Source of the DNA: Sanchytrium tribonematis
Lineage: Eukaryota
Reading direction: 5' to 3'
Length of the DNA: 40,862 nucleotides
Assembly (NCBI GenBank): GCA_018985235.1
Contig: JADGIG010000025.1
Location: 1 to 40,862 of the forward strand
Part shown: in pieces, positions 15,331 to 31,607 of the stretch
How positions within the stretch are numbered: the first letter of the stretch is position 1
Layout of the letters: each line of letters opens with the position of its first letter
The notes under the pieces: model-generated
What the model was told of the DNA's origin: nothing
Database searches by the model: none
What the model saw: the letters and a program-made list of their open reading frames with translations, nothing else
Position numbers and translations under genes: made by a program

Positions 15331-16249
15331 ATGGCAAAATACATGAGATATTTCATCGTTTACATGATATTATTTATACCCCTTTGGTACAAATTAACAG
15401 AATTGTATAGAGCAAACATAAGAGAACCCGTTGCATGGGAATCAAGCCAAACATTTCCCGAGAGAGAATTTTGCATATACGTTCCAAAAGTAGCATGGCA
15501 TGTCTACATAGTTCATTTCAAAGAAGTGCCTGGATCGATTAAGCGTGAAATTTTGGAAAAAAATCTTAATTTTGCATCAAGTGAGTTACCACTAAATATC
15601 ACATATTCAATTTATGAGGTTCATGAAAATAAAATCACTCTGCCAACAAACCAAAAAAATATACAGTCTATTATGAATGAATATACCACAGTGAATTTGT
15701 TTGAAGATAATGTGATTCACACAATTGTTTACAATGTAAATGAGACCGAATCTCGCAATTATTTAAGAATTCCAAGATGGGGATCTATTCATACAGAGAT
15801 TAATTACGACAGCATTGTTGATTCTTTGTTGAAAGTTCATTGCAAACTAGACAATCAACCCAAAGCAGATTTGTATAGAAAATATATTGATTATTACGGT
15901 CTTGAATCATATGATTTGGTAAGATCATTAAGGAAACTAGTGAATGAGCTTTACAACATGATTGTTCCAGATACGATTGCAGATTTTGTTGATGATTATA
16001 GGCAACATATTTTGATAGCGAAAAATGAAACAGATTTACATAACGCTGTGTATGAAGCAGGTAAAGCTTATCGTTTTGCCCACAAAGCGTATTATCATCC
16101 ATCTATAACTTCAGTTCAAACGTATCCGGATGAGCACAAATATGCGATATACTGTAATTTTTATTCATTTAGTACCTTTTGTGTTGCCATACGTTTATCC
16201 TATCATTGCAACACTCTATGAGCTCAAAACCCAAATCCCTGATGCTTAA
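15331..16249 (+). CDS. GPI17: GPI transamidase subunit PIG-S/Gpi17 (exons 15331-16153 and 16173-16249; 299 aa)
   Basis: N-terminal TM segment with PLWYKLTELYRA, then IPRWGSI and AYYHPSITSVQTYPDEHKYAIY. Removing a 19-nt intron continues into LPFVLPYVYPII, matching the family YAIYxPLFLP TM motif. Confidence 0.85.
16154..16172 (+). other. 19-nt spliceosomal intron (phase 1)
   Basis: GTAATTTTTATTCATTTAG; removal restores the PIG-S C-terminal motif. Confidence 0.85.
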
Positions 16250-16294
16250 TTTCCGTGATTAATAAACATTCTCTTGCTTGAAAAAATCTCCTTG

Positions 16295-17305
16295 ATGCAA
16301 AATACAAATAGACTAACAAATTATTCGATACAGATTTTGATAGCAACTGTTTTAAAAAAGAATTATGATAGTATGAATAAGCAATCACTTCAAATATTGA
16401 CCAGCATATTTACCCAATACATATTGCAAGTCGGCAAAGTGAGCAAACATTATGCAAATTATGCAGGACGATGCCAAGTACAATTAGAAGATGTTCTGTA
16501 CGCCCTTACTGACTTTGGAATAGATTTTACTCAGTTGATTCGGCAAAAAATGCGACACGATTCTATGTATGAACTTGTTGACGTAGAGGAGAAACCAGCA
16601 AGATCGCCACCGACCCAGAACCAAAGTGAAAATATACCGACTCATTTGCCTGATTTTCCTCAAAAAGATCTTGTGAAAACCTCATATACTCCTGCTCAAG
16701 TAGATGTTATTCCATTTCATCGAACGGATTCAAATGATGACAGTATAATAACTGATGCTCCGGATATTCCGCCGAGATTAGACCAATTTGAACCAGATCC
16801 ATCAAACAAAGAATTAAAAAGTTTGTTTGATGTATCGAAAGAGGAGATAACTCAAGCTTTATATACTACAATGAAGGAAGTCGAAGTTGCACAAGAGAAC
16901 ACATCTGAAGAGCTGGAATCTAACAGGAAGACGTCAAAATTAATAAGAAAGCAATTATACATGGATGCGCTCAAACGACATCCTCTGTTACATCAGGACA
17001 TTGGAAGCCATTCTGATCAATATCAATATATGACGCTTTTTCCATTTTCCCCGCACTTCGAAATGCCTAACAGCGCTCAATTATCTACTAGTTGTCGTGC
17101 TAGTTATTCTAGCTCTCGAATTCCACCAGGTTGGCTACTGGCGCCATATAAGATAAACCTGAGACCACCTACACACAAAAAGGTTCTGGATTTTCAAGAC
17201 GTAAATGATTTGCTTGAAGATGATGGTAACAACGAGCAGCAAGATAGGGAATATAGAAATTCATATTTGGACGCAGTTTTAATGCAAAGCAGGCTTAAAT
17301 CTTAA
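16295..17305 (+). CDS. Bromodomain-associated (BTP) histone-fold protein, TAF8-like (TAF3 not excluded)
   Basis: LQILTSIFTQYILQVGKVSKHYANYAGRCQVQLEDVLYALTDFGID histone fold followed by IPTHLPDFP. First ATG is at 16295. Confidence 0.7.
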   Translation: MQNTNRLTNYSIQILIATVLKKNYDSMNKQSLQILTSIFTQYILQVGKVSKHYANYAGRCQVQLEDVLYALTDFGIDFTQLIRQKMRHDSMYELVDVEEKPARSPPTQNQSENIPTHLPDFPQKDLVKTSYTPAQVDVIPFHRTDSNDDSIITDAPDIPPRLDQFEPDPSNKELKSLFDVSKEEITQALYTTMKEVEVAQENTSEELESNRKTSKLIRKQLYMDALKRHPLLHQDIGSHSDQYQYMTLFPFSPHFEMPNSAQLSTSCRASYSSSRIPPGWLLAPYKINLRPPTHKKVLDFQDVNDLLEDDGNNEQQDREYRNSYLDAVLMQSRLKS

Positions 17306-17310
17306 TAAAT

Positions 17311-17433
17311 TTATTCTGTCCGCCATCTATTTTTCTTATTGTACAGCAAATATACAGAAAATGAACCTGCTGCTGCTATGAATCCCCATCCTATCAAAAT
17401 TTGACCCGGAGAATTAAATTTGAAAAGCGTCAT
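17311..17433 (-). CDS. 40-aa single-TM microprotein (DUF4748-like), not in the ORF track
   Basis: MTLFKFNSPGQILIGWGFIAAAGSFSVYLLYNKKNRWRTE*. It is preceded by CTCCT as other genes here are, fills the gap exactly, and its GWG..AAG..Y pattern resembles small fungal DUF4748 proteins as I recall them. Confidence 0.65.
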   Translation of the reverse strand: MTLFKFNSPGQILIGWGFIAAAGSFSVYLLYNKKNRWRTE

Positions 17434-17469
17434 GTAGGAGAACTTAATTTACAGTGATAAAACATAAAT

Positions 17470-18279
17470 TTATTTAAATGGCTTACTTACCATATAACTT
17501 GACTCATAATGCGTAGTTTGGTGATTGGGGGCAGGTGCACCATTATTGATAATTGGTTGCCTGATTTCCTCTAAATTTAAAATGGACCTCCTTGGATTAT
17601 AATAATCATCATTTTCCAGTTGGCTATCTTGTCTTTTCAGTTTTTGCTTCTTTTTCCAAACCAAAGCACCAAATGAAAATGCGATGATTAATGCACCGAT
17701 GATTGAAACTAAAATAATCCACCACAAATCCTCGTTTGTTCCAGACATGGAGTCTTGTGCGGTCTCATCATTAAGAAAATCAGTGTCATCCCATGAACCT
17801 AAAAAGTCTTTCCCACAGGATGCGAGCGCCTTTGCTTTGATCCGCTCTGCAAATGTGTCGTTCGAAACACTTTCAAATTTTAATTCATTGGAAATCATTC
17901 TAGATTGACAGGTAGAACATGTGAGGTTTAAAGTGGACAATTTGGAGCTCACATCGTCTACTGTGGCTGCACCCTGAGCAATCCATGTGTCTAATCTTTC
18001 CTTGTAACATAAAATCCCGTTGGATTTTGTACATCTTGAGTTCCATTGATATATGCAATACTTTAAAATTTCTGGCTTATTTTGCTCGTATAAACATTTA
18101 GCAATATTGTTGCGATATTGACTCGAACACTCTGGTGTGCAAACATTTTGGGCATTATGATTTAAGTCGACGAGATAGGATGTTTTGCTGATTAAAGTTA
18201 ATGTGCAGTCTGCTGGTAAATGACATTGAGGTACTTCACTTAGTTTATCGCAGGCCATAATGAAGGAAATTATTATCAT
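17470..18279 (-). CDS. Type I membrane protein with a Cys-rich ectodomain, function unknown
   Basis: Short hydrophobic leader MIIISFIMA, about 12 Cys in the ectodomain, TM segment LWWIILVSIIGALIIAFSFGALVW followed by KKKQK, and a Tyr-containing tail. Confidence 0.75.
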   Translation of the reverse strand: MIIISFIMACDKLSEVPQCHLPADCTLTLISKTSYLVDLNHNAQNVCTPECSSQYRNNIAKCLYEQNKPEILKYCIYQWNSRCTKSNGILCYKERLDTWIAQGAATVDDVSSKLSTLNLTCSTCQSRMISNELKFESVSNDTFAERIKAKALASCGKDFLGSWDDTDFLNDETAQDSMSGTNEDLWWIILVSIIGALIIAFSFGALVWKKKQKLKRQDSQLENDDYYNPRRSILNLEEIRQPIINNGAPAPNHQTTHYESSYMVSKPFK

Positions 18280-18323
18280 GTTTGTTTTCAACTAAAACCC
18301 CTTTCATGAAAACAACTTTATTA

Positions 18324-21300
18324 TTATCTCAAATATCTTTGGAAATCAAGTTGCTCGGGTATTCTGTCACCTTGACATACTAGATGAACTGCCATCTCAT
18401 AGCTATAGTCCAATCCTTTCAACAATTTTGGTGTTATCATAAAGTATTGAGAGTCTTTTGAACGCTGCACAACCAGAGCATGCACTAATTTTTCATTTCT
18501 AGGATCCATGCCTTGATTTATCTCATCTACTACTCTAAATGGTACCGAAGACGTACCCTGCAAACACATCAGATACAACATTGTAGCAACAGACTTCTCT
18601 CCGCCAGAGTGCCGAGTTCCAGATAAGGAATGTAGGCTTTCTGCTCCTCTAAATTTAACCAGTATATCTATTCCCCAATGCTTAATATCTTCAGGGTCTT
18701 CACTTTTGTACAACTTGATTTCACCATCGCATTTAACGCTCAACATATTCTCTCTAAATTTACTAGACAAATCTGTGATCATATTATTGACTTTTGAAAT
18801 AAAATTTCGGCGTCTAGATACATTCAAAGAAGTTAATTCCTCTGCCTCTCTCTCTTTGACGGCAATTAATTTTTCAAGCTTGGTAATCTGAAGTTTTCTT
18901 TCTTCGTAGAGCCTTACTTCCTCCCTGACAGTTTCGTTTAAAGTATTGTTTAGCCGAGTCTCTAAGCCTCTAATTTGCATTCCAACATCGACGATCTCGA
19001 GATTTTTGAATTCCCTTTCTTCAATCATTGATTTCGCCGCCACAGAAAGTCGAGCAAATTGATTTTTTTGCTCTGTGTTAAACTCTTCGACATTTTTCTC
19101 TGCAGATCTGATTTCTCTTTCTAAGAGTTTGACGGAGTTTTCAAGACTGTTTATAGTACTGGAGGTATCTGAGTAGTCATTTAGAAATTCTTGCAGATCC
19201 CTTCTAGATGTTGAGACTAATTGGCATTTCAAATATAATTTTTCTACGAGATTCTCAAGTCCTTCAAATTCCTTTATGTATTCTTCAACCAAATTTCTTT
19301 TATCTTCTTCCTTAGATTCAATAATTTTTTCTTTCCTTTTAATCTGAGAATCAATAGATGGTCGATTTTCTAAAACTTGTAGGCTTTCCTCGTATGAACT
19401 TAATTTGCTTCTAAGATTTGCAGGTATCATCAGCTTTTGCCGAACTGATTGTAATTGAGTAGCCAACGAGGACCGCGCTTCTTGCCGCTTTTTCATTTGC
19501 GAATTAATTTTGTTCTCTTCGGTTTTTAGGGCGTGTAGTTCTTTCGCATAAGAATCAACTTTTGTTCTGGAATCAGTAATAACGTTTTTCAACTCTTCTA
19601 CTCGCTGAGTATCAGTAGCATTTTTCAAAACTCGAGCTTCTCTTAATATCGAAGTTTTTGTTGAAAGCTCCTTTCTTCCATATCTACTTCTGGTATTGAT
19701 ATGAATCTCATTTCCCATCACAAATTTCGGATATACACCCCGACATTTATCATACATAGATGGGATTAAAGCACGGCTGCTAACTGGAATTTTATGAAAG
19801 TCAAAATCATTACATAAAAAACTTTTGACCAGTGGAGTACATTGTACCGCATCTGCCAATACAGCATCAAAGCCAACACTTTTGTAATTTGCGTCATTTT
19901 CAAAATTAGAATTAGGCGGATGTCTCACATCAATTTTCAAGGCTCTAGAATCAATCAATTCCTTCATTAAATGCTCATAGTCTGCCACATTGTCAGTCAA
20001 AATCGAAAACAAACCACGTCCAACAAAATTTTCGACTGCTTTTCTATATTCGGCTTGAACCTCGATGTCCAAAAAAACAGGTCCTTCTACGTTGGAAAAT
20101 TTGTGATGATTCTCAGTAACATATTGATATGCTGTGAATGCGTCCGAATTTAAGTTTCTTAAAATATTAAGCCTTTGAGTCTTCACTTCATTCAATTGCT
20201 TCAACTCCCTTTCAGCATCACTTTGACGCTGACGGAAAAGCCTAGCATCTGAATCTAAGTCACGAACTTTTGAATTGATTGTACTTAGCTTCTGTTCGAG
20301 ATCTTGCCCATCTCCGTCATGTTTCTGTAAATTTTCTTTTAGACGTGTTTCTTGTTCTTTATAATCAGCAAATTTACTTTCTTCGCTTTTAATAGACTCT
20401 GTTAAACTCGATATAGCGCGTTTTTGTGCCTCGATAGAATCTTTGTCTTCTTTCTCTTTTTCGTGGACTTTGTTGATTTCAACAAAAACATTGGTAATCT
20501 CTTCTTCAATTTCTTCTGATTTATCGTAACCCTGAGTAAGCCGTTTTTGTATAACAGAAACATTTTTCTCGAGCAAACTGACAGCATCGGATGCCTGATC
20601 AACTTTTTCTTGCAAAACTCGTTTCCTTTTTGCATTTGCTTCATTCTTCTTCCTCGTTGAGTTTAGTGTTCTCGAAGCTTTTTCTCTATCATCTTTAAGC
20701 GTATTTAGAGTCGCTCGAGCCTCTTCGTAATTTAATAGCTTGTATACTGCTGTTAGAGCTTCCAATTCAAGTTTCAGAAGTTCACTTTCTCGGTAAGTCT
20801 CTACTTGACCAATAACTAATTGATTTCGCTGGATTAAACTTTCCAATTCCTGCCTTCTTTCTTCCAATACTTGTGCAGCATTATTTGAGTTTGACATATC
20901 AGCAATTACCTGCTCATGAAGCTCCCTGAAATCATTTCCGCCGACAATATATTCTGTTTCCTTCAATCTATCCTTAGCATTTAAAGCGGCAAATTGGCCT
21001 ACCCTTTCTTGAGGCAGAACTTGACATAAATTTGCGACATTTATATTAAGATCTGCCATTAACTCATCGATTACTTTTAAATTACATTTGACATTGTCAA
21101 TTAAAAAATCATTGGATTTTGTTGTGATAAATCTAGAGATAGTGGTAGAACCAGATTGGGTTTTGATAGTGATATGAATCTTTGCGAAGTCTTCTCCGAA
21201 TTTGATGAAAGACTTTAAATCAGACGATCTTTCCAAGTTTGCAGGCTTTCCACCTAATCCAAGTACTATTGCACATACAATAGAAGATTTTCCACTTCCA

Positions 21301-21467
21301 TTTGGACCACACAGTAAATTTAAATTTGGATGGCACCTAAATACAACATGCTCATAAGTCAAAAACTTTTCTAGCTCGATGTTCATGATTTGACCTTGTC
21401 TAAATTCAATTGTTTCATTTGTGTTCAGGTTGTCAGCAAGATTAATTACGTCCGTGCTGCGAACCAT
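18324..21467 (-). CDS. SMC5: Structural maintenance of chromosomes protein 5
   Basis: [14 protein letters not shown]alker [12 protein letters not shown], long coiled coils, [14 protein letters not shown] signature and [17 protein letters not shown]alker B typical of SMC5. Confidence 0.96.
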
Positions 21468-21544
21468 TAATCTTGTGGGTTACAAGTTCCCCTAACACCT
21501 TCTCACTTTTTTTACAAAATAAAAAATTTTCTAAACATATTTTC
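21468..21544. promoter_or_regulatory. 77-nt divergent intergenic region between SMC5 and ACADM
   Basis: Head-to-head ATGs at 21467 (-) and 21545 (+). Contains CCCAC on the minus strand near SMC5 and CCCCT on the plus strand. Confidence 0.5.
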
Positions 21545-22754
21545 ATGCTGAGACTTGCTAAACGAAAAATCTCTTTTCAACTTACTGAGGATCAAAAACA
21601 AATCCAAGAATTAGCTAGAAATTTTACAAAGCAACATATTATCCCAAATGCTGCACACCATGACAAGACTGGAGAATATCCAAGTGAAATTATTAAATCA
21701 GCCTGGGAAAATGGATTATTGAACACAGATATTCCCAAAGAATATGGAGGTTTAGGATTGAAACTCTTAGATGCAAGTTTTATTAGCGAGGAATTGAGTT
21801 TTGGGTGTTCAGGGATTCAAACTGCAATGGAGGCTAATAATTTGGCACAGGCGCCTGTAATTTTAGCCGGAAATGATGCTCAAAAAAAGAAGTATTTAGG
21901 AAGAATGGTAGAGGCTCCGTTAATGTGTGCCTACTGTGTAACAGAACCTGGTGCGGGCAGCGATGTTGCTAATGTTAAAACTAAAGCAGTCAAAAAAGGT
22001 GATAAATATATTTTGAATGGATCGAAAATGTGGATTACAAACGGTGGTAAAGCTAACTGGTACTTTGTGCTTGCCAGAACAAACTTGGATCCTAAAGTTG
22101 GTGGACACAAAGCATTGACAGCTTTTGTAGTGGATGCAGACAGCAAGGGAGTATCACTCGGGAAAAAAGAACTCAACATGGGGCAGGGAGCCAGTGATAC
22201 TCGTGGTGTCAATTTCGAAGATGTTGAGGTCCCAGCAGAAAATGTTTTAGGACTTGAAGGACAAGGATTTAAAGTCGCTATGGGGTAGTTTTCTTTAATA
22301 TAGAGTTTTTGATATGACTAGACCACTTGTTGCTGCTGGTGCAGTTGGTTTAGCTAAAAGAGCTTTACACGAGGCCACTGATTATGCTTTACAGCGTAAA
22401 ACAATGGGAACTGAAATTTTTAATCATCAGGCGGTTCAATTCATGCTAGCTGATATGGCGACTGGGGTTGAAGGTGCGAGACAACTTACTAGACTGAGTT
22501 GTTGGCAATATGATAACAAGATTCCAAATACCTACATCGCTTCTATGGCAAAATGTTATGCTAGTGAAGTGGCTAACAAGAATGCTGCAGACGCAGTCCA
22601 AATTCATGGTGGAAACGGATTTAATTCAGAGTATCCTGTCGAAAAGCTCATGCGTGACGCAAAAATTTTCATGATCTACGAAGGAACATCCCAAATTCAA
22701 CGATTAATTATTAGTAGACTTTTAAAAGGTAAATATGAAAGTGGAAACCTATAA
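21545..22754 (+). CDS. ACADM: Mitochondrial medium-chain acyl-CoA dehydrogenase (exons 21545-22284 and 22304-22754; 396 aa)
   Basis: [39 protein letters not shown]. The two track ORFs join as GFKVAMG-VFDMTRP after a 19-nt intron is removed. Basic presequence MLRLAKRK. Confidence 0.95.
22285..22303 (+). other. 19-nt spliceosomal intron (phase 2)
   Basis: GTAGTTTTCTTTAATATAG; removal restores the conserved GFKxAMGxFDxTRP motif without a gap. Confidence 0.93.
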
Positions 22755-22760
22755 ATAAAT

Positions 22761-24065
22761 TTATTGAGCTGAGGATCCAACTGACAAACAGCCGCTACAT
22801 TGGCGACATTGAATCGGAGACAGATCCACTTTCTTCAGCACTTTCCTATTTGAGTGAATATGTAGACCAAGTTCATAACCTTTGACCAATTGATATTCAT
22901 ACTCATTTGGACATTTTTCAGACAAACCATCCACTTGAATACCAACTGTGGAATCTAAGTAAGTTCCGGCCCGATCGGTTAGTAAGCCATTCAACAAATT
23001 GAAAACCAACGAAATATCGGCAGTTAGGGTGACATCTGCTTGGCCTTTGTTTTCTAAAATTTCTACACTGGACGGGTGGGGAACAAGGTTGTAGTTGAAT
23101 CTTTTCATTGGCGGCACATTGGATTCTGTGGTAGCCTCAAAATCGACTGTTCCTTCAATACCGAATCTGGCATCCATATTTTGTACAACTTTGACGTGTG
23201 CACCGGTCCAAAGCGAGGCTTCAGGATGCAGTTGAAGTACATCAGGAATATCAATAATTGGTATAATCTTAGAGATAAGTTTAGTTGCATCGAAATATTT
23301 CTCATATCCTCGTGAGAAAGTACTTCTGCTTTCAATTTTAATGTCAAAATTCATTTCTCCCTTTGCAGCCATGTTAATCGTACTAGATAAGCCTCTGTTC
23401 AATTTTCTTACTCTTCCAGTGGCTTTGTATAAAAATCCAAAGTTAAGATATGCCCAACAGTCTTCACAAACGATATTTGCATTTTCATCTTGATGCAATT
23501 GCATATCTTTTTGACATGTTCCATGAGTTTGCTCATTAAAACAGTATGGCATTGTAATCCATTGGAAATCTCTGTCCAACTCTCGCTTTCTGACTCTTTC
23601 TTTTTTTACTAATTTTGCAATTACTTCAAAATAGTCTGCATAATCCTCTGGTCGAGCAGGCACTACATTCATAGAGACAGTATTTTCTTGCTTTTGGATA
23701 TTTGTAGCAACAAACCAAGGACCATTTTTTTCCATCACATCAATGCACCATCTGTGACCTATAAACACAAAAGCTTTTTCTGGCCAAGAGGTTGGAGCAA
23801 ACTGATCAAGAGTGGCGGAGACTGTTGATTCAGTACAAGAAGCATCCATAACCCATTCTGCGGAATCCAAATTGACGTTTTGCAATTTCATATTTGGGAA
23901 TCTTAATTTAACATCAACAGTGATATCTTTAAGGTCGCTTTGGAAGTCACCCCTAAAGTTATTTCCAAGATCTTCTGTGAATTTGACAGGCTTAGGAACA
24001 TGAATTTTGGGATTCTTATTAATCAAGTCGCTCAAGTTTGTGGCCAACACAGTTGTAATAAACAT
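22761..24065 (-). CDS. Secreted beta-rich protein of unknown function (possibly a fungal DUF7029/DUF7223-type architecture)
   Basis: Short leader MFITTVLA, NLD...C...S.T...W...GH..C segment, a basic RKR site that may be a kexin cleavage site, and a Cys-containing C-terminus. Confidence 0.55.
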   Translation of the reverse strand: MFITTVLATNLSDLINKNPKIHVPKPVKFTEDLGNNFRGDFQSDLKDITVDVKLRFPNMKLQNVNLDSAEWVMDASCTESTVSATLDQFAPTSWPEKAFVFIGHRWCIDVMEKNGPWFVATNIQKQENTVSMNVVPARPEDYADYFEVIAKLVKKERVRKRELDRDFQWITMPYCFNEQTHGTCQKDMQLHQDENANIVCEDCWAYLNFGFLYKATGRVRKLNRGLSSTINMAAKGEMNFDIKIESRSTFSRGYEKYFDATKLISKIIPIIDIPDVLQLHPEASLWTGAHVKVVQNMDARFGIEGTVDFEATTESNVPPMKRFNYNLVPHPSSVEILENKGQADVTLTADISLVFNLLNGLLTDRAGTYLDSTVGIQVDGLSEKCPNEYEYQLVKGYELGLHIHSNRKVLKKVDLSPIQCRQCSGCLSVGSSAQ

Positions 24066-24230
24066 TTAAATTAGTATAGGCATCATTTGACTCTTATAAC
24101 CTTGCACTATAAATCTTGCCGTCGACTTAGCCAAGAATGGCTATGTATCTCCATTAAAGTTGGTAACACGGGACTGGTAAATACCACTGGTAAATTTTGG
24201 CGAAAAATGTGATTTGCTTGAAAGCGCCAT

Positions 24231-25451
24231 TTATTTTTTCTTTGGTTTTTCGCTTAGCAATTTCACTTGGTTCATATGAGGAACAATATACCAGCTCATA
24301 TTCAAATGTTTGCAGAAACTAGAGAAAACGCTATAAATAAAGTAAAAATAATAAACTGCAAAAAAGGATGTGTATATGGCGGTAATAGTAGTCAAGTCAG
24401 AAGTTTTCAATCCAGAATATCTGATGAACAAAGATAGTGAGAAAAATGACCAGACTGCACTTGGAGAGGGATAATGTTGAGAAACAATGTATGCCAAAAT
24501 AACCTGAGTAGTGTAGACTGCAAAACTTAAAGTACCGCCTACAATAAGAAGCCAAAATGAGTTTTTGATCCAAAAAAATGGGGAAGTTGCGAGTAAAAAT
24601 CCGGATGCAGCAAAAACAAATATAGGGTAAATTTTAAAGGATGCTAAAATCATATTCTCTTTTCTATGTTTTGAATTGTAGACATTGTACATTGATGCCG
24701 GAGCGTGTACTATAAAAACTGCCAGTAGCATAATAAAGACCAGTACATCAATTAAGAGTAAGTCTTTTTTAATTTCAAGCCGAAGAAAAGCCAATTCAAC
24801 AGACTTCTCAAAAGGATAAATTAATAAAGCGGCAAAAGCGTTTCTTTTAATTACGTCTAAAGGAGTAAAGTATATTTGAGGTCCAAAAACAGCGCTAACT
24901 AAAGAACATAAACTTCCTAGTAACAGTCCCTCCGTTGGTCCATTTATGTATCCAAGATAGAGTGTTTTAGTGAAATATTCTTCCCATGAACTGATATAAA
25001 ATGGTACAGATGCAATTCCTATCACCCACAAAGTGTAGTAACTATAACCCAGCCCCATTCCAGCTGCTTGAACCAAGCCCCCTAGGCAGCATTGTACAGC
25101 ATCGCATCCGTGATCCACAAGCTCACCTAATGGGCTACTAGTCTGGGTTCTTCGCGCTTGCTTTCCATCCAAATTGTCCATGGTTGAATAATACCATATT
25201 GCAATTGCACTTAAGTAGCTGAGCCATGAGTATTGACCATTTAAACCATCTACAGCATAAGTTATAATGAGCAATAGCACAATTCCTAACAAACCGAAGA
25301 GAGTCACCAAATTTGGATGTAACCAAACAGGCAAATAGTTGCTCAAAGGTGTCCAATAGTAGGGATTTAAAAAGTATTTAGATAGAGGCGACTTGTCTAT
25401 AGAAGAATACTTGTAGTTCTTGAGATTTTCTAGATCTGTTAAATATTCCAT
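24231..25451 (-). CDS. Choline/ethanolamine phosphotransferase (Cpt1/Ept1 family)
   Basis: YKYSSIDKS, PNLVTLFG and the CDP-alcohol phosphotransferase motif DNLDGKQARRTQTSSPLGELVDHGCD; multiple TM segments. Confidence 0.95.
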   Translation of the reverse strand: MEYLTDLENLKNYKYSSIDKSPLSKYFLNPYYWTPLSNYLPVWLHPNLVTLFGLLGIVLLLIITYAVDGLNGQYSWLSYLSAIAIWYYSTMDNLDGKQARRTQTSSPLGELVDHGCDAVQCCLGGLVQAAGMGLGYSYYTLWVIGIASVPFYISSWEEYFTKTLYLGYINGPTEGLLLGSLCSLVSAVFGPQIYFTPLDVIKRNAFAALLIYPFEKSVELAFLRLEIKKDLLLIDVLVFIMLLAVFIVHAPASMYNVYNSKHRKENMILASFKIYPIFVFAASGFLLATSPFFWIKNSFWLLIVGGTLSFAVYTTQVILAYIVSQHYPSPSAVWSFFSLSLFIRYSGLKTSDLTTITAIYTSFFAVYYFYFIYSVFSSFCKHLNMSWYIVPHMNQVKLLSEKPKKK

Positions 25452-25526
25452 GACAAGGGGAACCCTAATTTTTGCAGTTATAATTTACCTTGCACATGCA
25501 AAAATATCTAGTCTGAAGCTACAGAT

Positions 25527-26645
25527 TTATATTTTATTTAGACAAGAGTTTGTGTAATCCAACCATCTGCCCAAATTATCTTCCCACGAATTCACATTGA
25601 GCTCTTTTCCAATTAGATGCACAAATTTTATAAAAAGCGCGCAAACATGCTTATTTCCTTTAACCGTTTTTCTAGAAATTGCCATTGCATCTATCGCAGT
25701 AGTTTTCACACAATAAATGTCCCATCCATTTTGAAAGTAGTGCTTTTGAACTTTTCGAATGTGCTCCATCCTATCAAACCATTCCTCAGGCTTGTATACT
25801 TTTTCTATGAACGCAATTTTTTTCTTTTCAGCAATTAAATTGTAAAGTCTACAAAATATTACACCATCACATAAATCTGTCAAAAAGTGACTCAATATCT
25901 GCTCATCTTGTTCATCAGCAATACCCGAAAGATCTAATAATGGCAGATGTTTTTTAGCTGTTGGAATTTTCTGAATTAGGTAGTGGTAGCACTTGAGAAC
26001 TTCATTACATATGAACTTGTCCAAAAGGCTATCGTCTAACAAAACGACTCTCTTTTCGGTCGCTGGCATGCTTCTTTCAGGCAATGGTGAAATTCCTACT
26101 GAATGATTGGAGTTGGTGGAGCTTCTATCAGATGGAGCAGCAAAATCAGAGGGGGATTTTGAAGAAATGAAAGATATCATTGTAGGTCTATCTATTTTGA
26201 TAGGTTCGGGCAATTGGATTTTCTCATTTAGGAGATATTCGTGAATTTTCACAGAAAATTCTTGCACTGTGACATAATTATTATGAATAAAATCCATAAG
26301 ATCATTATGAGACCGAAATTCCGTTTTTGTTGCTAATAAAAGCCCTTCAATCATTGTCTTAATTTGTTGCAGCGTTTCCTTCAATTTAGGAATCATATTT
26401 TTAGGAATTGCTGAGTGATGTGTTTTAATAAAGGATTGAGTTTTTTGAAGTACAGCTGAGATAGAAAATGCCAACATCTGAATATCTAGAGACTTTTTAT
26501 CGACCATGCTTGATCTTTTATACAAGGATCCCCATGTTTCTTGCATGAATTCTAAAGCATCTGTTAAGGCCACTTTTTTTGGATCAACAATTGGTTTAGA
26601 TGCAACGGAATTATGTGGCGATACCTTCAGTGAGGATTTTTTCAT
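25527..26645 (-). CDS. Hypothetical protein with a possible C-terminal calponin-homology-like domain
   Basis: 372-aa ORF from the ATG. FLTDLCDGVIFCRLYN resembles the CH motif L.DG..LC.L.N. Confidence 0.55.
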   Translation of the reverse strand: MKKSSLKVSPHNSVASKPIVDPKKVALTDALEFMQETWGSLYKRSSMVDKKSLDIQMLAFSISAVLQKTQSFIKTHHSAIPKNMIPKLKETLQQIKTMIEGLLLATKTEFRSHNDLMDFIHNNYVTVQEFSVKIHEYLLNEKIQLPEPIKIDRPTMISFISSKSPSDFAAPSDRSSTNSNHSVGISPLPERSMPATEKRVVLLDDSLLDKFICNEVLKCYHYLIQKIPTAKKHLPLLDLSGIADEQDEQILSHFLTDLCDGVIFCRLYNLIAEKKKIAFIEKVYKPEEWFDRMEHIRKVQKHYFQNGWDIYCVKTTAIDAMAISRKTVKGNKHVCALFIKFVHLIGKELNVNSWEDNLGRWLDYTNSCLNKI

Positions 26646-26716
26646 CAACGTGAATTGTCATGAGCTCACTATTAAAAAACTTAAGAATTAATGTTAGACC
26701 AATCAGATTTATTTAA

Positions 26717-26917
26717 TTAAATCGAAGCATTTATTCCAGTCTTGTTCATAAATAATATCATATCAATATATCTTTCAGAACACTTTTCAATACAGCTTAA
26801 GTTGCTGCACTTTTTATTGCAAATTTTGTTGACATGCTGAACCAGGGACTGAGTTCGTGCTTTTCCAGTTTCCATGATTGCAAAATCATCAAATTTTTGC
26901 TGATCCTCTTGTCTCAT
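26717..26917 (-). CDS. Small Tim chaperone (Tim8-like, twin CX3C)
   Basis: E..KAR.Q..V....CNKKC...CIEKCSERYID pattern in 66 aa. Confidence 0.75.
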   Translation of the reverse strand: MRQEDQQKFDDFAIMETGKARTQSLVQHVNKICNKKCSNLSCIEKCSERYIDMILFMNKTGINASI

Positions 26918-27008
26918 GCAAGATATTAATTATAGGGGATAAGACTATAAATTTTTCAAGCTGGCAGAACTTATGTACGTGTAATTTTATTTTGTCTATT
27001 CGAAATGA

Positions 27009-27281
27009 TTATTCCAGATCACCGTAAGATTCCTCACCTTCCGAAGAGCAGTGGCCATCTGGTTTAGTCGGTCTTTTTTGCCGTCCAGTTTTTTGTTTAT
27101 CCACTCCAAAATTGTGGTCTTGCTTATCCTTTTTACCATAAAGAATGTAGCTCATAATAGCACTACTGGCAGCTGTCACAACTATGACTGACCTGCACCA
27201 TAATCCACAAATTTGAGGCTTTTTGGTTCGTTGCTGTTTTATCAATGGTGTTGCAAAAACGAATAAAACAGTGATATGCAT
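27009..27281 (-). CDS. Small secreted or membrane peptide precursor, CGLxC paralog 1
   Basis: MHITVLFVFA-TP leader, ICGLWC followed by a ~20-aa hydrophobic stretch, and a charged tail. Confidence 0.55.
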   Translation of the reverse strand: MHITVLFVFATPLIKQQRTKKPQICGLWCRSVIVVTAASSAIMSYILYGKKDKQDHNFGVDKQKTGRQKRPTKPDGHCSSEGEESYGDLE

Positions 27282-27462
27282 ATGCGATAAAGGTGGTCGC
27301 ACTTCTATAAACTATCTATGATGAGATTGTTTCTAATATGACGAAATTGTTAATTACAAATTCTCTATTATTTTTCAAAAGATTCTTTTGAGCTTAACTT
27401 TTTACATTTTAAATTCACAATATTTCTGTTTGAAAATAATAATTTACTAACGCTTATGTACC

Positions 27463-27738
27463 TTAAACTAAAGATACCTTCAGAGAACGAAATTTGTTTT
27501 TAATTGCGCTTGACGCTTTGACAAAGAAGTTTTTAATTTCAGTAGGATGCTTCCATGCGTAAAATCCGGCTGTCAATGTCGCTAATCCAGTGGCAGCTGC
27601 TGCCGCTTTGCATTTAAGACCACATGGCTGGTCCCATGGATTTCCCGTGGGATTTGGTTGGAATGCTTCTCTAGAGTCTTCAGAGGTGATTTTTTCTGTA
27701 ATAGGCACAGCCGACAACAAAACTAATGATAAAAGCAT
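27463..27738 (-). CDS. Small secreted or membrane peptide precursor, CGLxC paralog 2
   Basis: MLLSLVLLSA-VP leader, PCGLKC followed by an Ala-rich hydrophobic stretch, and a cationic tail. CCCCT motif upstream of the ATG. Confidence 0.6.
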   Translation of the reverse strand: MLLSLVLLSAVPITEKITSEDSREAFQPNPTGNPWDQPCGLKCKAAAAATGLATLTAGFYAWKHPTEIKNFFVKASSAIKNKFRSLKVSLV

Positions 27739-28004
27739 TTGTATTAGTGGAGGGGATGCTTTGTGATTAAATATCAAATTTATCAGTCATGTGGAATTTA
27801 ATGGTGCAATTTCAAAGTTGTCTTTGCCAAAATGACATCATTCAGATGTGAATATCGACACCAGTAAGATTTAGTAATAGAGTAGCTGATTATTTCAATT
27901 TTTTGAGTGGTTCACCTGAAAGCTTTGCATTTGAGTATTGATTGAAAATTCCATACAAACTAATAAAATTTGCATCTTGACAACCCCCTTTTAAAACTCA
28001 TCTG

Positions 28005-28890
28005 ATGTTTTCTACATTATCTGTCAGTGAAGGTTCCCACGAACAAGGTGTATGGAGTTTAAAATGGCTGCAAAATCAATTGATTTCAGGAGGTGCTGAC
28101 TCCCAAGTAAAAATTTGGGATTCTCAATTAAATGAAGTGAAAGCATTCTCTCATCATTCAATGAGTGTCATAAATGTGGAGACGTACAACAATAAGGCAA
28201 TAAGTCATAGTTTTGATGGATCATTATGCTACTTTGACCTTGAAAGTGGAATTGTTGAAAAGAAATTGGAATTTGCACCAGTAGATTGCTTTCATACTCA
28301 AATTTACCAAAATACGATTGCTAGAACTTGTTACGATGGTTCTGTCGTACTAATGGACTTGGATGGAAAAGATAAATGTAGGTTTCAATCCAAGAAAGAT
28401 GTGTTTGTATTTAATTGCTGTTTCAACAATGATGGTAAGAGATTGGTTGCTGGATTGCAAGATGGAAGCGTAGCCGTTTTTGACGTCGAATCACAAAAAT
28501 TAATACATAACATTAACGCGCACCAAAAGCCAGTGCGACAAGTTTCAATTAGTCCCGATCAAAAATATATCGTAACTGCATCTTACGACCGGAGGGTTTG
28601 TGTCATAGATTTGTAATTTTTGCTAACATAGAGAACACGGCAATATTTTGACTTCGTTCTCGGGTCATAATTCATGGGTTTTGACAGCTGATATGCATCC
28701 AACTGAAACTATTATTGCAAGCGGAAGCTCTGATAAAACTGTCCGCTTATTCGATTTTAAATCTGGAAATACACTTCATGTTTATGAAGACAACACTGAT
28801 CAAGTTTGGCGAGTGAAATTTAATGCTGCTGGTGATAGATTGGCAACAGCTAGTGATGATAGAAGCATTCGAATCTATAGGACGGCTTAG
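28005..28890 (+). CDS. WD40 protein WDR61/Ski8-like (exons 28005-28612 and 28632-28890; 288 aa)
   Basis: HEQGVWSLKW, ISGGADSQVKIW, APVDCF, AHQKPVR, SGHNSWVL and DQVWRVKFN. The two track ORFs join as VIDL-EHGNILTSFSGH after a 19-nt intron is removed. Confidence 0.85.
28613..28631 (+). other. 19-nt spliceosomal intron (phase 2)
   Basis: GTAATTTTTGCTAACATAG, containing a canonical CTAAC branch site. Confidence 0.93.
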
Positions 28891-28918
28891 TTTAATAAAT
28901 CTATTTATTCGCTATATT

Positions 28919-31607
28919 TTACATCATAGTGGAAGAGGGTCTTTTGTTTATTTTCAAGCTCTTGTCGCTTAGGTTTCTCTCATTTTTGGGATCTGGAACT
29001 CTCTGAAGGGAATTGAAAGCACTAAAATCATCTGTCGAAGCATCTAATATCTCTGGTTCTATGCCTTTTTCAAAAAACGCCACACTTATCTCTGGATTTA
29101 TCATTTGACTCTGTTTGATTCTCCCATCATTTGGGTCAATATCAATGGAAGCACTAATTGTTGACAGGGCTCTAGAACCACTTATCATGTCAGGGTCGTC
29201 TAATACTTCACTTAATCTTTTAATAGATGCTAATTCCTTGTCGATCTTTTCTGGTTCAATTTCAGTCGAAAGTCTAGATTTCTTGGGTGAAACCTTATCT
29301 TGAAGTTGCTTGTCGATAGAATTTAGACTTGTTGACGCATGATTTTCGTCCTTGATCTTGTCTTTCGGCCTTAACTTGCTAGCAGACTCAGATGATTCAA
29401 GCTTAGGGATCTTCTTTTCATCTTTTTTTATTTCATCTGGGAATGGTTTGGACTTTTTTGAGGTATCCCCCTTAGAAGGCGATTTTTTCATTTCGTAATT
29501 TTCTGCTGCTTTTTTGACGGAAGATTTCTTGATGTCAGACTCATCACTCACCGAACTATCTGCAAATGAAATAGATTTAGGACGATCATTCAAATTATCA
29601 AGTTTAAGCTTGTTTGATTTACCAGTCGAATTTTTGGGCTCAAGCTTCAAATCAGCAAATTTCTCTTTTGTATCAGTAAATTTCAAATTGTGTGCTGAGC
29701 CGTGCTGTGGCTGTTCTTTGTCCTTTCGAACATCTTTCTCAAGCTTTGCGGTTTCTTCTTTGCTAAATGCGATTTTCTGTATTCTTTCTAGTTGTTCTTG
29801 CTGCTGAATACTTAATGACTGTTTGTCCCCGGCTTGTGGTTGTTTTACACTCTGGCTTCGCCTAACACTGCCTTTATTGGCAACTCGATCCTTTTGGCCT
29901 TCAAAGACTTGGGAGTCATCGCTAGTCTCAGATTGCTTGCGAGGATAATTATACTGTTTTTGCTCGATTTCTATAGGAGGTGGGATGGTTTCTCTTCTCG
30001 GGTTTATTTCATAATAAGAACTGCGAGCATTATTTAGTCTTTCAGAAGAAGTTCTTTCTGCTTGCACATAGCTGCTGTAGTACGGATCTGCTTTTTTATA
30101 TGCATCAAATTGTGGGTGTTCATAATTTTCTCTAAAATGACCGCCAGAATATGGATCACGTCTGTAAGAATCATAAAAATTATTTCTAGGGTCAGCCGAG
30201 CCATACTGGTCTCTAGCAAACCTAGGATCATTTAAGGGAAACTGGGGCTCTCTATTTCTAGGATCATTTGGACCAAACTGTTCTCTGACAATTCGTGTAT
30301 CTGTTCTCCCATCTTCTCTGTTACGAGGATCTTGATAGCGAGGATCATTTCTCGGATCACCAATTTGAAATTCTCTAGCAACCCTAGGATCAGTCCTTGG
30401 TTCAGAAGGAGAATATGGATCTCGAAGTGCTCTAGGGTCATTTCCAGGAGGAACAAACGAGGAATATCTAGGATCTTGAGGATATGGTCTCGCTTGTGGC
30501 AAATTTGCAAATCGGGGGTCTCTGGATAATTCCTTTCCGTCTTTCGAAAATCTCGAGTCGCTACCGATTGTGGAATAGCGATTCTCGCTATTGAATCTAC
30601 CTTCACTATTGCCACTGAAACGAGATTCATCGTATGGCAACCTGTTATCAAAATCCATTCTCAATCGTGGATCATCCCTTGCAAATCTCGGGTCCATTTC
30701 CGGTGGGTATTCGTATCGCATGTTTCGCATTCTGTAATATTCTTCGCTGGACATCTGAGGGTAATCGTAATAGTACATCGGTGGAACAGGGTAGCCATAC
30801 ATATCGTACATTGGCATTCTTGGAGGGAACATTTGCTGATAATTTGTTCCACTATAGTCACTATAATAGTCAGGAAAATCATTTGGACGAGGTGGATATC
30901 TGTTTTTAGCAGGGTCAAAAGTTTGGCTTCTCAACCTTTCGTCATCTTTGTGATTATTTGCATCAGGGTCTTGGCCATTTTTATTCAAATCATTCATAGA
31001 TTTCATGGATGGTGCTTTGGTAACTTTAACCTCTTCATCTTCGCGTTTTTTGGAGCTTTCCTTGGATGTATTTGATCTGAGAATGCCTTTTTTCTTCTTT
31101 TCTTTTTCTTCTGGTTTTTTATCAGATAATGATGTAGTGGATCGTTTAACTACAGACGAGGGAGAGGCTAATGACGGGGATTCTGAAAGTGGAATTGTTG
31201 GTTGCACAGTTTCTCTATCTTTTTGGGATGGAGACAGTGGCGACTTAGCATAATTATCAGCAAGAATTAAATCAATAGCAGTTATCCACTCAAGAAGCTG
31301 CTCTTCGCTGGAAGCTGCAACATCCAGGGTACCTTGTTGTGTGACAATAACAAACCTGAATTTTTGAACTTCGTCCTCGACGCGTTTTGTTCCAATGATA
31401 CCACTAGAATTACTATGTTAGTGTAAATTACCATGACCACTGAGTAGTTGTAGATTGATACATTAATTTTTCGTCAGTTAACTTGAAAAAATACAACTTC
31501 CACTTATCCTCATATAGTTTATATAAATATCCACTTGTTTCTGCATCTTTTTGTGTCTTTAATTGATTAACTTGATTATAAAGTTTAGCTTTGACTTTTT
31601 TAAACAT
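28919..31607 (-). CDS. PH-domain protein with a long disordered, DPR-repeat tail (exons 31607-31432 and 31412-28919; 889 aa)
   Basis: Exon 1 MFKKVK...SGYLYKLYEDKWKLYFFKLTDEKLMY joined to ...FRFVIVTQQGTLDVAASSEEQLLEWITAIDLIL forms a complete PH domain in frame with the 762-aa track ORF. Confidence 0.85.
30170..30700 (-). repeat. About a dozen Asp-Pro-Arg (DPR) peptide repeats
   Basis: DPRF, DPRL, DPRY, DPRA, DPRV and DPRN recur in a Tyr/Arg/Pro-rich low-complexity region. Confidence 0.75.
31413..31431 (-). other. 19-nt spliceosomal intron (phase 2)
   Basis: GTAATTTACACTAACATAG on the minus strand, with a CTAAC branch site; removal completes the PH domain. Confidence 0.9.

What the first reader, a model, noticed from the sequence alone, without database searches (positions are those of the whole stretch)
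16154..31431. Four spliceosomal introns, all exactly 19 nt, with a fixed branch-site position
Seen: GTAATTTTTATTCATTTAG (16154-16172), GTAGTTTTCTTTAATATAG (22285-22303), GTAATTTTTGCTAACATAG (28613-28631) and GTAATTTACACTAACATAG (minus strand, 31413-31431). The ungapped consensus is GTARTTTnnnYTMAYWTAG, with an invariant A at position 14, six nt from the 3' end. Each removal restores a conserved protein motif (PIG-S, MCAD, WD40, PH). These are the only introns I can support in about 29 genes. Known: introns this small are reported from few lineages, such as Stentor (15-16 nt) and chlorarachniophyte nucleomorphs (18-21 nt), and typical fungal introns are much longer. Inference: this fungus-like genome has a streamlined spliceosome that selects introns by fixed length, making a ~14-nt lariat loop with no polypyrimidine tract.
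Basis: partly seen in the sequence, partly recalled or inferred. Interest (0 to 1): 0.9.

Follow-up and report, generated by a model that had tools for sequence, protein, structure and literature searches.

The report
Nineteen-base introns in a parasitic fungus
Four genes of a sanchytrid (a small-genome fungus that parasitises algae) are each interrupted by a 19-base segment that is very likely a spliceosomal intron, likely among the shortest known in fungi, and relatives are inferred to have 19-23-base introns at mostly the same places, with the predicted branch point always six bases from the end.

Summary
The four 19-nt GT-AG segments are real (4 matches against 0.11 expected). Removing exactly those bases gives the best homologue score in MCAD, PIG-S and WDR61; the spliced MCAD aligns without a gap to the intronless 396-aa MCAD of Amoeboradix gromovi. 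The host groups with A. gromovi (100/100), so it is a sanchytrid, whose published proteins were called without an intron model. Relatives' uncorrected gene calls break at the same sites in WDR61 (3 of 3) and the PH gene (2 of 2). Their read-through tails imply introns of 19, 19, 20 and 23 nt, each with A at -6 and no G at +5. So the constant is the branch-to-AG distance, as in Stentor; strict 19-nt length holds only for 4 of 4 here. A. gromovi's annotation lists U1-70K, U2AF, SF1, SF3B1 and Prp8 but not Slu7 or Prp18, so the spliceosome is not drastically stripped. No RNA data were available; splicing and the branch A are inferred. I found no paper on sanchytrid nuclear introns. Verdict: a new, convergent case of ultra-short U2-type introns, shorter than the ~25-nt microsporidian ones.

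The parts
15331..16153 (+). PIG-S (GPI transamidase subunit) exon 1
   Evidence: Pfam PF10510; 50 or so of 90 homologue alignments end at or next to residue 278, the codon at the donor (by eye)
16154..16172 (+). 19-nt intron in PIG-S, phase 1; predicted branch A at 16167 in TTCAT
   Evidence: best of 16 excisions against a profile of 88 homologues, restores H-K-Y-A-I-Y-L-P-F
16173..16249 (+). PIG-S exon 2 (spliced product 299 aa)
21545..22284 (+). Medium-chain acyl-CoA dehydrogenase (MCAD) exon 1
   Evidence: Pfam PF02771, PF02770; 84% to A. gromovi P0004
22285..22303 (+). 19-nt intron in MCAD, phase 2; predicted branch A at 22298 in TTAAT
   Evidence: best of 61 excisions; spliced protein aligns gap-free, 336 of 396 identical, to intronless A. 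gromovi MCAD
22304..22754 (+). MCAD exon 2 (spliced product 396 aa)
   Evidence: Pfam PF00441
28005..28612 (+). WDR61/Ski8-like WD40 protein exon 1
   Evidence: nearest named full-length hit P0127 'WD repeat-containing protein 61'
28613..28631 (+). 19-nt intron in WDR61, phase 2; predicted branch A at 28626 in CTAAC
   Evidence: best of 24 excisions; 3 of 3 sanchytrid relatives break at the same codon
28632..28890 (+). WDR61 exon 2 (spliced product 288 aa)
31432..31607 (-). PH-domain gene exon 1 (58 codons plus 2 nt)
   Evidence: PH profile 3-34, E 0.074; 2 of 2 relatives are 59 aa and end Q-W-S-W-stop as the unspliced window does
31413..31431 (-). 19-nt intron in the PH gene, phase 2; predicted branch A at 31418 in ACTAAC; an in-frame second AG lies 9 nt further (31404)
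28919..31412 (-). PH-domain gene exon 2 (spliced product 889 aa)
   Evidence: PH profile 62-102, E 0.0004

Best explanation
Four sanchytrid genes each carry a 19-nt GT-AG segment that is likely a U2-type spliceosomal intron, predicted to branch at the A six bases from its end and to be cut at the AG that follows at that set distance. The layout is GTA[AG]TTT, a short linker, a branch motif YTMAY at positions 11-15, one variable base and TAG. Splicing would give a 14-nt lariat loop with a 5-nt tail. The 3' site would be set by distance from the branch point, with no pyrimidine tract, which would make Slu7 and Prp18 dispensable. Total length is likely held in a narrow band (19 here, 19-23 across sanchytrids) by deletion bias pressing against a steric floor for the loop, rather than by a strict length gauge. 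Shown: sequence, position, protein restoration, shared positions in relatives, host clade. Inferred: excision from RNA, the branch nucleotide, relatives' intron lengths, loss of second-step factors, the cause of the narrow size.
For: Motif and non-randomness. Exact 19-nt removal best in 3 of 3 genes with homologues; intronless A. gromovi MCAD has the same length and junction. Same-site breaks in relatives: WDR61 3 of 3, PH 2 of 2, MCAD 3 of 6 proteins. Back-translated tails give 23 nt (P0122, score 27 against next 5), 19 nt (P0005, 32 against 8), 20 nt (P0125, 77 against 11), and 19 nt for A. gromovi WDR61 if its stop codon is the acceptor TAG. In the three tails where the end is fixed by exon 2, A at -6 and T at -3 are forced by the amino acids; background for both is 0.079 per random GT..AG segment, about 5e-4 for three (hand arithmetic). 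Core spliceosome listed for A. gromovi, SLU7 and PRP18 not; Slu7 is unnecessary when branch-to-3' distance is 9 nt or less (PMC10158995). Stentor introns have the branch A at 10 of 15 and 11 of 16, also -6 (PMC9505925).
Against: No cDNA or lariat evidence. n = 4 in this genome. Relatives' introns are deduced from protein tails, not read from DNA; for P0126 a 10-nt alternative scores higher (12 against 0) and is set aside only as implausibly short and branchless; P0003 gives only 'at least 17 nt'; P0005 needs TGA read as W by its gene caller to give the conserved D. The PH acceptor is ambiguous. No sanchytrid PIG-S relative was found. Absence of SLU7, PRP18, U1C and PRP39 rests on an eggNOG table of a sister species (3,755 rows seen; about half its proteins are unannotated, completeness 92%), where fast-evolving or intron-split genes would be missed. 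Microsporidian short introns are spliced at under 20% (PMC6349667), so efficiency here is open.
Confidence: 0.8

Rival explanations
1. Strict length gauge: in this species the spliceosome measures 19 nt from GT to AG (a molecular caliper, as proposed for the Bigelowiella nucleomorph), so nearly all introns are exactly 19 nt.
For: 4 of 4 are 19 nt with no gap in the alignment; two relatives also give 19; Mikrocytos has 217 of 224 at one length (PMC10245619) and Stentor 93%.
Against: Relatives give 20 and 23 nt at the same sites with the branch motif moving with the 3' end; 4 of 4 is compatible with a share as low as 0.47; the introns carry a real branch motif, which caliper-type nucleomorph introns lack (PMC6009652). 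This rival can hold within the species and still fail across the phylum.
Confidence: 0.3
2. The segments are real introns but are mostly retained, as in Encephalitozoon, so they act as a throttle or leave truncated products.
For: Microsporidian ~25-nt introns are spliced at under 20% on average (PMC6349667); intron-poor reduced genomes tend to retain introns (PMC6009652); all four shift the frame, which would send retained mRNA to decay.
Against: They sit in mid-gene of housekeeping genes whose C-terminal parts are conserved and intact; strong consensus; 18-21-nt nucleomorph introns are spliced efficiently.
Confidence: 0.2
3. Not introns: assembly indels, pseudogene frameshifts or ribosomal frameshift sites.
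For: No RNA evidence; for PIG-S a single-base deletion also opens the frame.
Against: A single-base shift cannot rescue MCAD (250 aa, 459 bits against 723) or WDR61 (203 aa, 576 against 856) and scores lower for PIG-S (82 against 92, with six extra residues). Independent relatives break at the same codons. GT-AG ends and a shared branch motif in 4 of 4. X1 contigs show no indels at these sites.
Confidence: 0.03

Closest known systems
Heterotrich ciliate introns (Stentor coeruleus, 15-16 nt; PMC9505925, sections 5 and 9 read)
   Same: GTA start with T-rich +5 to +7, AT-rich body, branch A six nt from the end, 5-nt tail ending TAG, narrow length, minority of genes with introns (18% there, 4 of 28 here), U2AF present.
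   Different: Four nt longer (loop 14 against 10-11); a recognisable CTAAC/YTMAY branch motif, which Stentor lacks; an unrelated lineage, so convergent.
Mikrocytos mackini introns (16-17 nt; PMC10245619, section 7 read)
   Same: Reduced parasite, few hundred to about a thousand very short introns of conserved sequence and narrow length.
   Different: Mikrocytos has only 17-19 spliceosomal proteins found; the sanchytrid sister species lists at least 19 splicing factors in the rows I queried, U1 proteins, U2AF and SF1 among them.
Chlorarachniophyte nucleomorph introns (Bigelowiella natans, 18-21 nt; PMC6009652, passages read)
   Same: Same length range.
   Different: Those are dense (3.1 per gene) with no discernible branch A; these are sparse (0.11 per kb coding) with a clear branch motif, in a primary nucleus.
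Microsporidian introns (Encephalitozoon cuniculi, about 25 nt; PMC6349667 and PMC2483917, passages read)
   Same: Holomycotan parasite, short introns, CTAA-type branch motif close to the AG.
   Different: Shorter here; 5' site GTA[AG]TT without +5 G rather than GTAAGT; mid-gene positions in varied genes; sanchytrids are sister to Blastocladiomycota (PMC8371127), so a separate origin.
Fixed branch-to-AG introns of Yarrowia lipolytica, Trichomonas and Giardia (PMC2483917, passages read)
   Same: No pyrimidine tract, branch motif anchored to the AG. The spacing here (CTAAC, 2 nt, AG) equals that of Y. lipolytica.
   Different: Yarrowia introns are long (median 204 nt in that paper's table); here the whole intron is 19 nt.

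Membership tests
U2-type (major) spliceosomal intron | GT at the 5' end and AG at the 3' end | tested here: met
   4 of 4
U2-type (major) spliceosomal intron | Branch motif of the CTRAY kind near the 3' end | tested here: met
   CTAAC twice, TTAAT, TTCAT at positions 11-15; A at -6 also in deduced introns of relatives
U2-type (major) spliceosomal intron | Exact removal restores a conserved reading frame | tested here: met
   MCAD, PIG-S, WDR61 best of 61, 16 and 24 candidates; PH gene donor supported, acceptor by motif only
U2-type (major) spliceosomal intron | Removed from the mRNA through a lariat | not testable with these tools
   No RNA run was listed
U2-type (major) spliceosomal intron | Host encodes the major spliceosome (proteins and U1, U2, U4, U5, U6 snRNAs) | tested here: inconclusive
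   Proteins listed for sister species A. gromovi; no whole genome held for this window; no snRNA in the window
U2-type (major) spliceosomal intron | Usual extended donor with G at +5 (common, not obligatory; recalled) | tested here: not met
   +5 is T in 4 of 4 here and cannot be G in 5 of 5 deduced introns; also T in the commonest Stentor intron, so it does not exclude membership
U12-type (minor) intron | Donor RTATCCTT and branch TCCTTAAC (motifs recalled) | tested here: not met
   Donors are GTA[AG]TTT in 4 of 4
Ultra-short fixed-length intron systems (Stentor, Mikrocytos; a convergent class, not a homologous family) | Nearly all introns of the genome within 1-2 nt of one length | tested here: inconclusive
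   4 of 4 at 19 nt, lower bound 0.47; 19-23 nt across relatives
Ultra-short fixed-length intron systems (Stentor, Mikrocytos; a convergent class, not a homologous family) | Branch A at a fixed distance from the 3' end, no pyrimidine tract | tested here: met
   A at -6 in 4 of 4 window introns and 4 of 4 deduced introns with a placed end; by sequence only
Sanchytriomycota (host assignment) | Proteins group with a named sanchytrid | tested here: met
   MCAD tree: window, A. gromovi and 5 unnamed proteins form a 100/100 clade among 28 rows; WDR61 65% to A. gromovi against 28% to the next named hit; GC 34.9%. Species not determined.

The most novel reading that the evidence does not exclude
Sanchytrids carry the shortest spliceosomal introns of any fungus or animal: about a thousand per genome, peaking at 19 nt, overlooked because their genomes were annotated without an intron model. 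They are spliced by a spliceosome that kept U1, U2AF and SF1 but lost Slu7 and Prp18, and that reads a donor without the +5 G through altered U1 or U6 pairing.
Probability: 0.4. Interest if true: 0.8.

Novelty: new variant of a known kind. Interest (0 to 1): 0.66.

Why it matters
It would add a fungal lineage, independent of microsporidia, to the short list of organisms with introns under about 21 nt, and it has converged on the Stentor layout (branch A at -6, T-rich donor). That makes the question of the smallest lariat a spliceosome can form testable in a lineage whose close relatives (Blastocladiomycota) have ordinary introns, and the 19-23-nt series across sanchytrids separates a branch-anchored rule from a length gauge. 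It also has a practical cost: sanchytrid reference proteins were called as plain ORFs on genomic contigs (PMC8371127), and A. gromovi WDR61 is indeed cut short at its intron (208 aa against 288). If about one gene in seven is split like this, gene-loss counts for this phylum need rechecking.

Tried and rejected
No whole genome is held for the window, so no genome-wide histogram or snRNA search. No RNA holder listed; this says nothing about expression. Two scans of JGI metagenomes found no sanchytrid DNA: the WDR61 alignment gave 316 pattern matches, none confirmed, and an MCAD motif gave 2 loci, both bacterial-like (GC 66% and 49%, 57-59% identity, no intron); viral contigs gave 0. The PIG-S search returned the window's own protein and 90 distant homologues, no close relative. 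Rfam found no snRNA in the window (1 chance hit, E 0.71). The protein Atlas did not hold the PH sequence. Rejected: single-base indel or ribosomal frameshift; 28-, 25-, 49- and 70-nt upstream donors in the PH gene, because Q-W-S-W-stop is kept in three genomes; a 37-nt MCAD excision (27 bits lower); a 20-nt motif look-alike in TAF8 (16567-16586), whose frame is intact unspliced; U12-type. The Stentor genome paper (PMC5659724) was not held. Earlier scan notes held nothing for this genome or for this MCAD.
Full report
Observation. The four segments are at the stated places and are each 19 nt. Each shifts the frame by one. The window is 34.9% GC and about 92% coding, with 28 genes and a median gap of 69 nt. 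The other 24 reading frames run from ATG to stop without a break. A scan of 1,719 sense-strand GT..AG segments of 14-30 nt finds no fifth look-alike, also none of frame-preserving length; a degenerate 3n intron could still be missed. Density is 0.106 introns per kb of coding DNA, against 1.30 given for Allomyces (PMC8476143, table passage).

Protein tests. I removed every GT/GC..AG segment of 4-80 nt near each break in a script and scored the products. MCAD: 19 nt is best of 61 against a profile of 114 full-length homologues (723 bits; unspliced 455.5). PIG-S: best of 16 against 88 homologues (91.9; 78.3), restoring the H-K-Y-A-I-Y-x-P-x-F motif (2 long fusion hits and the window's own protein were left out of the profile). 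WDR61: best of 24 against two full-length WDR61 proteins (856; 576). Single-base deletions do not rescue MCAD or WDR61 and score lower for PIG-S. The PH gene is weaker: its halves match PH profile positions 3-34 and 62-102, and 11 excisions reopen the frame. The donor is fixed by relatives; the acceptor is chosen by its ACTAAC motif over an in-frame AG 9 nt later.

Host. The nearest named MCAD is that of Amoeboradix gromovi (84%), the nearest named WDR61 likewise (65%). In a 28-row MCAD tree the window, A. gromovi and five unnamed proteins form a 100/100 clade (the other 21 rows were picked by hand from 120 hits). The window is therefore a sanchytrid other than the sequenced A. gromovi; I did not determine the species. 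The genome paper (PMC8371127; passages, section 6 and supplementary file 4 searched) gives 10.5-11.2 Mb and 35-36% GC, and called proteins with TransDecoder on genomic contigs; its main text has 'intron' once, in a reference, and 'splic' never. Its main supplementary PDF, one large spreadsheet and one scanned file could not be read and might mention introns.

Relatives. Because these public proteins were called without an intron model, they show where introns lie. A. gromovi MCAD is unbroken and aligns without a gap to the spliced window protein, 336 of 396 identical: a natural intronless control. Of the other five sanchytrid-clade MCADs, P0002 and P0121 stop at the window's codon, P0122 reads into an intron at that site, P0005 has one 2 nt upstream, and P0003 breaks a few codons earlier. 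All 3 WDR61 relatives break at the window's codon, and both PH relatives end in the same Q-W-S-W-stop. Back-translating the tails and asking which GT..AG cut restores exon 2 gives 23 nt (P0122), 19 nt (P0005), 20 nt (P0125), 19 nt for A. gromovi WDR61 if its stop is the acceptor, and at least 17 nt for P0003. In the three cases where exon 2 fixes the end, A at -6 and T at -3 are forced; 7.9% of random GT..AG segments have both. Position +5 cannot be G in any of the five. These lengths are deductions from proteins; I could not fetch the DNA.

Mechanism. The likely reading is ordinary U2-type splicing on a minimal substrate. The branch motif fills positions 11-15, the predicted branch A is 14, and the product would be a 14-nt loop with a 5-nt tail. 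Only 3 nt lie between the branch A and the AG, so there is no pyrimidine tract and the 3' site would be set by distance, as in Yarrowia, Trichomonas and Giardia (PMC2483917, passages). Across sanchytrids the 3' part stays fixed and the loop varies from 14 to 18 nt, which favours a branch-anchored rule with a floor on loop size over a strict gauge. From my own knowledge of spliceosome structures, U1 and U2 with SF3b could not sit side by side on 19 nt in the usual way, so hand-over must be altered or sequential; this is inference. The A. gromovi eggNOG sheet (3,755 rows seen) lists U1-70K, U1A/U2B'', LUC7, PRP40, U2AF1, U2AF2, SF1, SF3B1, PRP5, PRP8, BRR2, SNRNP40, SNU13, PRP22-class helicases, PRP17, YJU2, CWC25, ISY1 and cactin; searches by name or by KEGG and KOG number (numbers recalled) found no SLU7, PRP18, U1C or PRP39. 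Slu7 is not needed when the branch lies 9 nt or less from the 3' site (PMC10158995, passages), so its loss would fit, but a missing row in such a table is weak evidence. The second species' sheet was cut at 171 rows.

What is known. Introns this short are described in Stentor (15-16 nt, branch A at -6; PMC9505925, sections 5 and 9), Mikrocytos (16-17 nt; PMC10245619, section 7) and chlorarachniophyte nucleomorphs (18-21 nt, no visible branch; PMC6009652, passages). Among opisthokonts the shortest I saw are Encephalitozoon (about 25 nt) and some Rozella introns (about 30 nt) (PMC6349667, passages) and myxozoans (median 22 nt, length classes from 20; PMC13644364, parts 1-2 of 3). Searches for Sanchytrium, Amoeboradix or sanchytrid with intron gave 8, 9 and 2 papers; the two sanchytrid papers use the word only in a reference title; the rest I saw as listings only. 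Searches for shortest or smallest fungal introns gave nothing on this lineage in the rows listed. The library lacks most subscription journals, so 'unreported' and 'shortest in fungi' are likely, not certain.

Verdict. The fixed-length and stripped-spliceosome parts are only partly supported. Extrapolated to a 10-Mb genome the density means about 1,000 introns (about 300-2,700 on a Poisson interval for 4; hand arithmetic). It is a new, convergent variant of ultra-short U2-type introns in a fungal phylum. Interest 0.66.

Noticed in passing
all four introns; relatives P0003, P0005, P0122, P0125, P0126: The donor never has G at +5 (9 of 9), unlike the usual GTAAGT/GTATGT; it resembles the commonest Stentor intron and suggests altered or weak U1/U6 pairing.
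   Followed up: partly
MCAD junction, window 22285; P0003, P0004, P0005: Intron position varies among close sanchytrids: phase 2 here, 2 nt upstream in P0005, a few codons upstream in P0003, absent in A. gromovi. This hints at sliding or active gain and loss of tiny introns.
   Followed up: partly
PMC8371127 supplementary file 4, A. gromovi NODE_116 p11 and p12: SF1/branch-point binding protein is listed as two adjacent ORFs, perhaps split by a tiny intron; PRP22-class entries are also multiple.
   Followed up: no
window 31404-31431 (-): GTAATT is repeated at the start of the PH intron and across its 3' junction, and a second in-frame AG lies 9 nt downstream.
   Followed up: partly
window 12810-15155 (-): A 781-aa ORF with five RNase H1 N-terminal (PF01693) repeats and no RNase H catalytic domain found by Pfam.
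   Followed up: no
window 15331-16249 (+): The spliced PIG-S is only 299 aa, against about 500-600 in most homologues; TAP42 and PIG-G/O also look shortened.
   Followed up: no
window 27066-27179: Run X1 has two alternative 114-nt contigs differing at 5 positions, at depths 38 and 47, next to two short secreted-looking ORFs (27009-27281, 27463-27738): two alleles or two strains.
   Followed up: no
P0003, P0124, P0227: Three relatives' proteins (MCAD, WDR61, PH exon 1) each list a 44,317-nt contig as their longest, which suggests the gene neighbourhood is conserved.
   Followed up: no
window 16567-16586 (+): A 20-nt GTATGA..TTGACGTAG segment in TAF8 fits a loose intron motif but the frame is intact without splicing; it lacks the T-rich +5 to +7.
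   Followed up: yes
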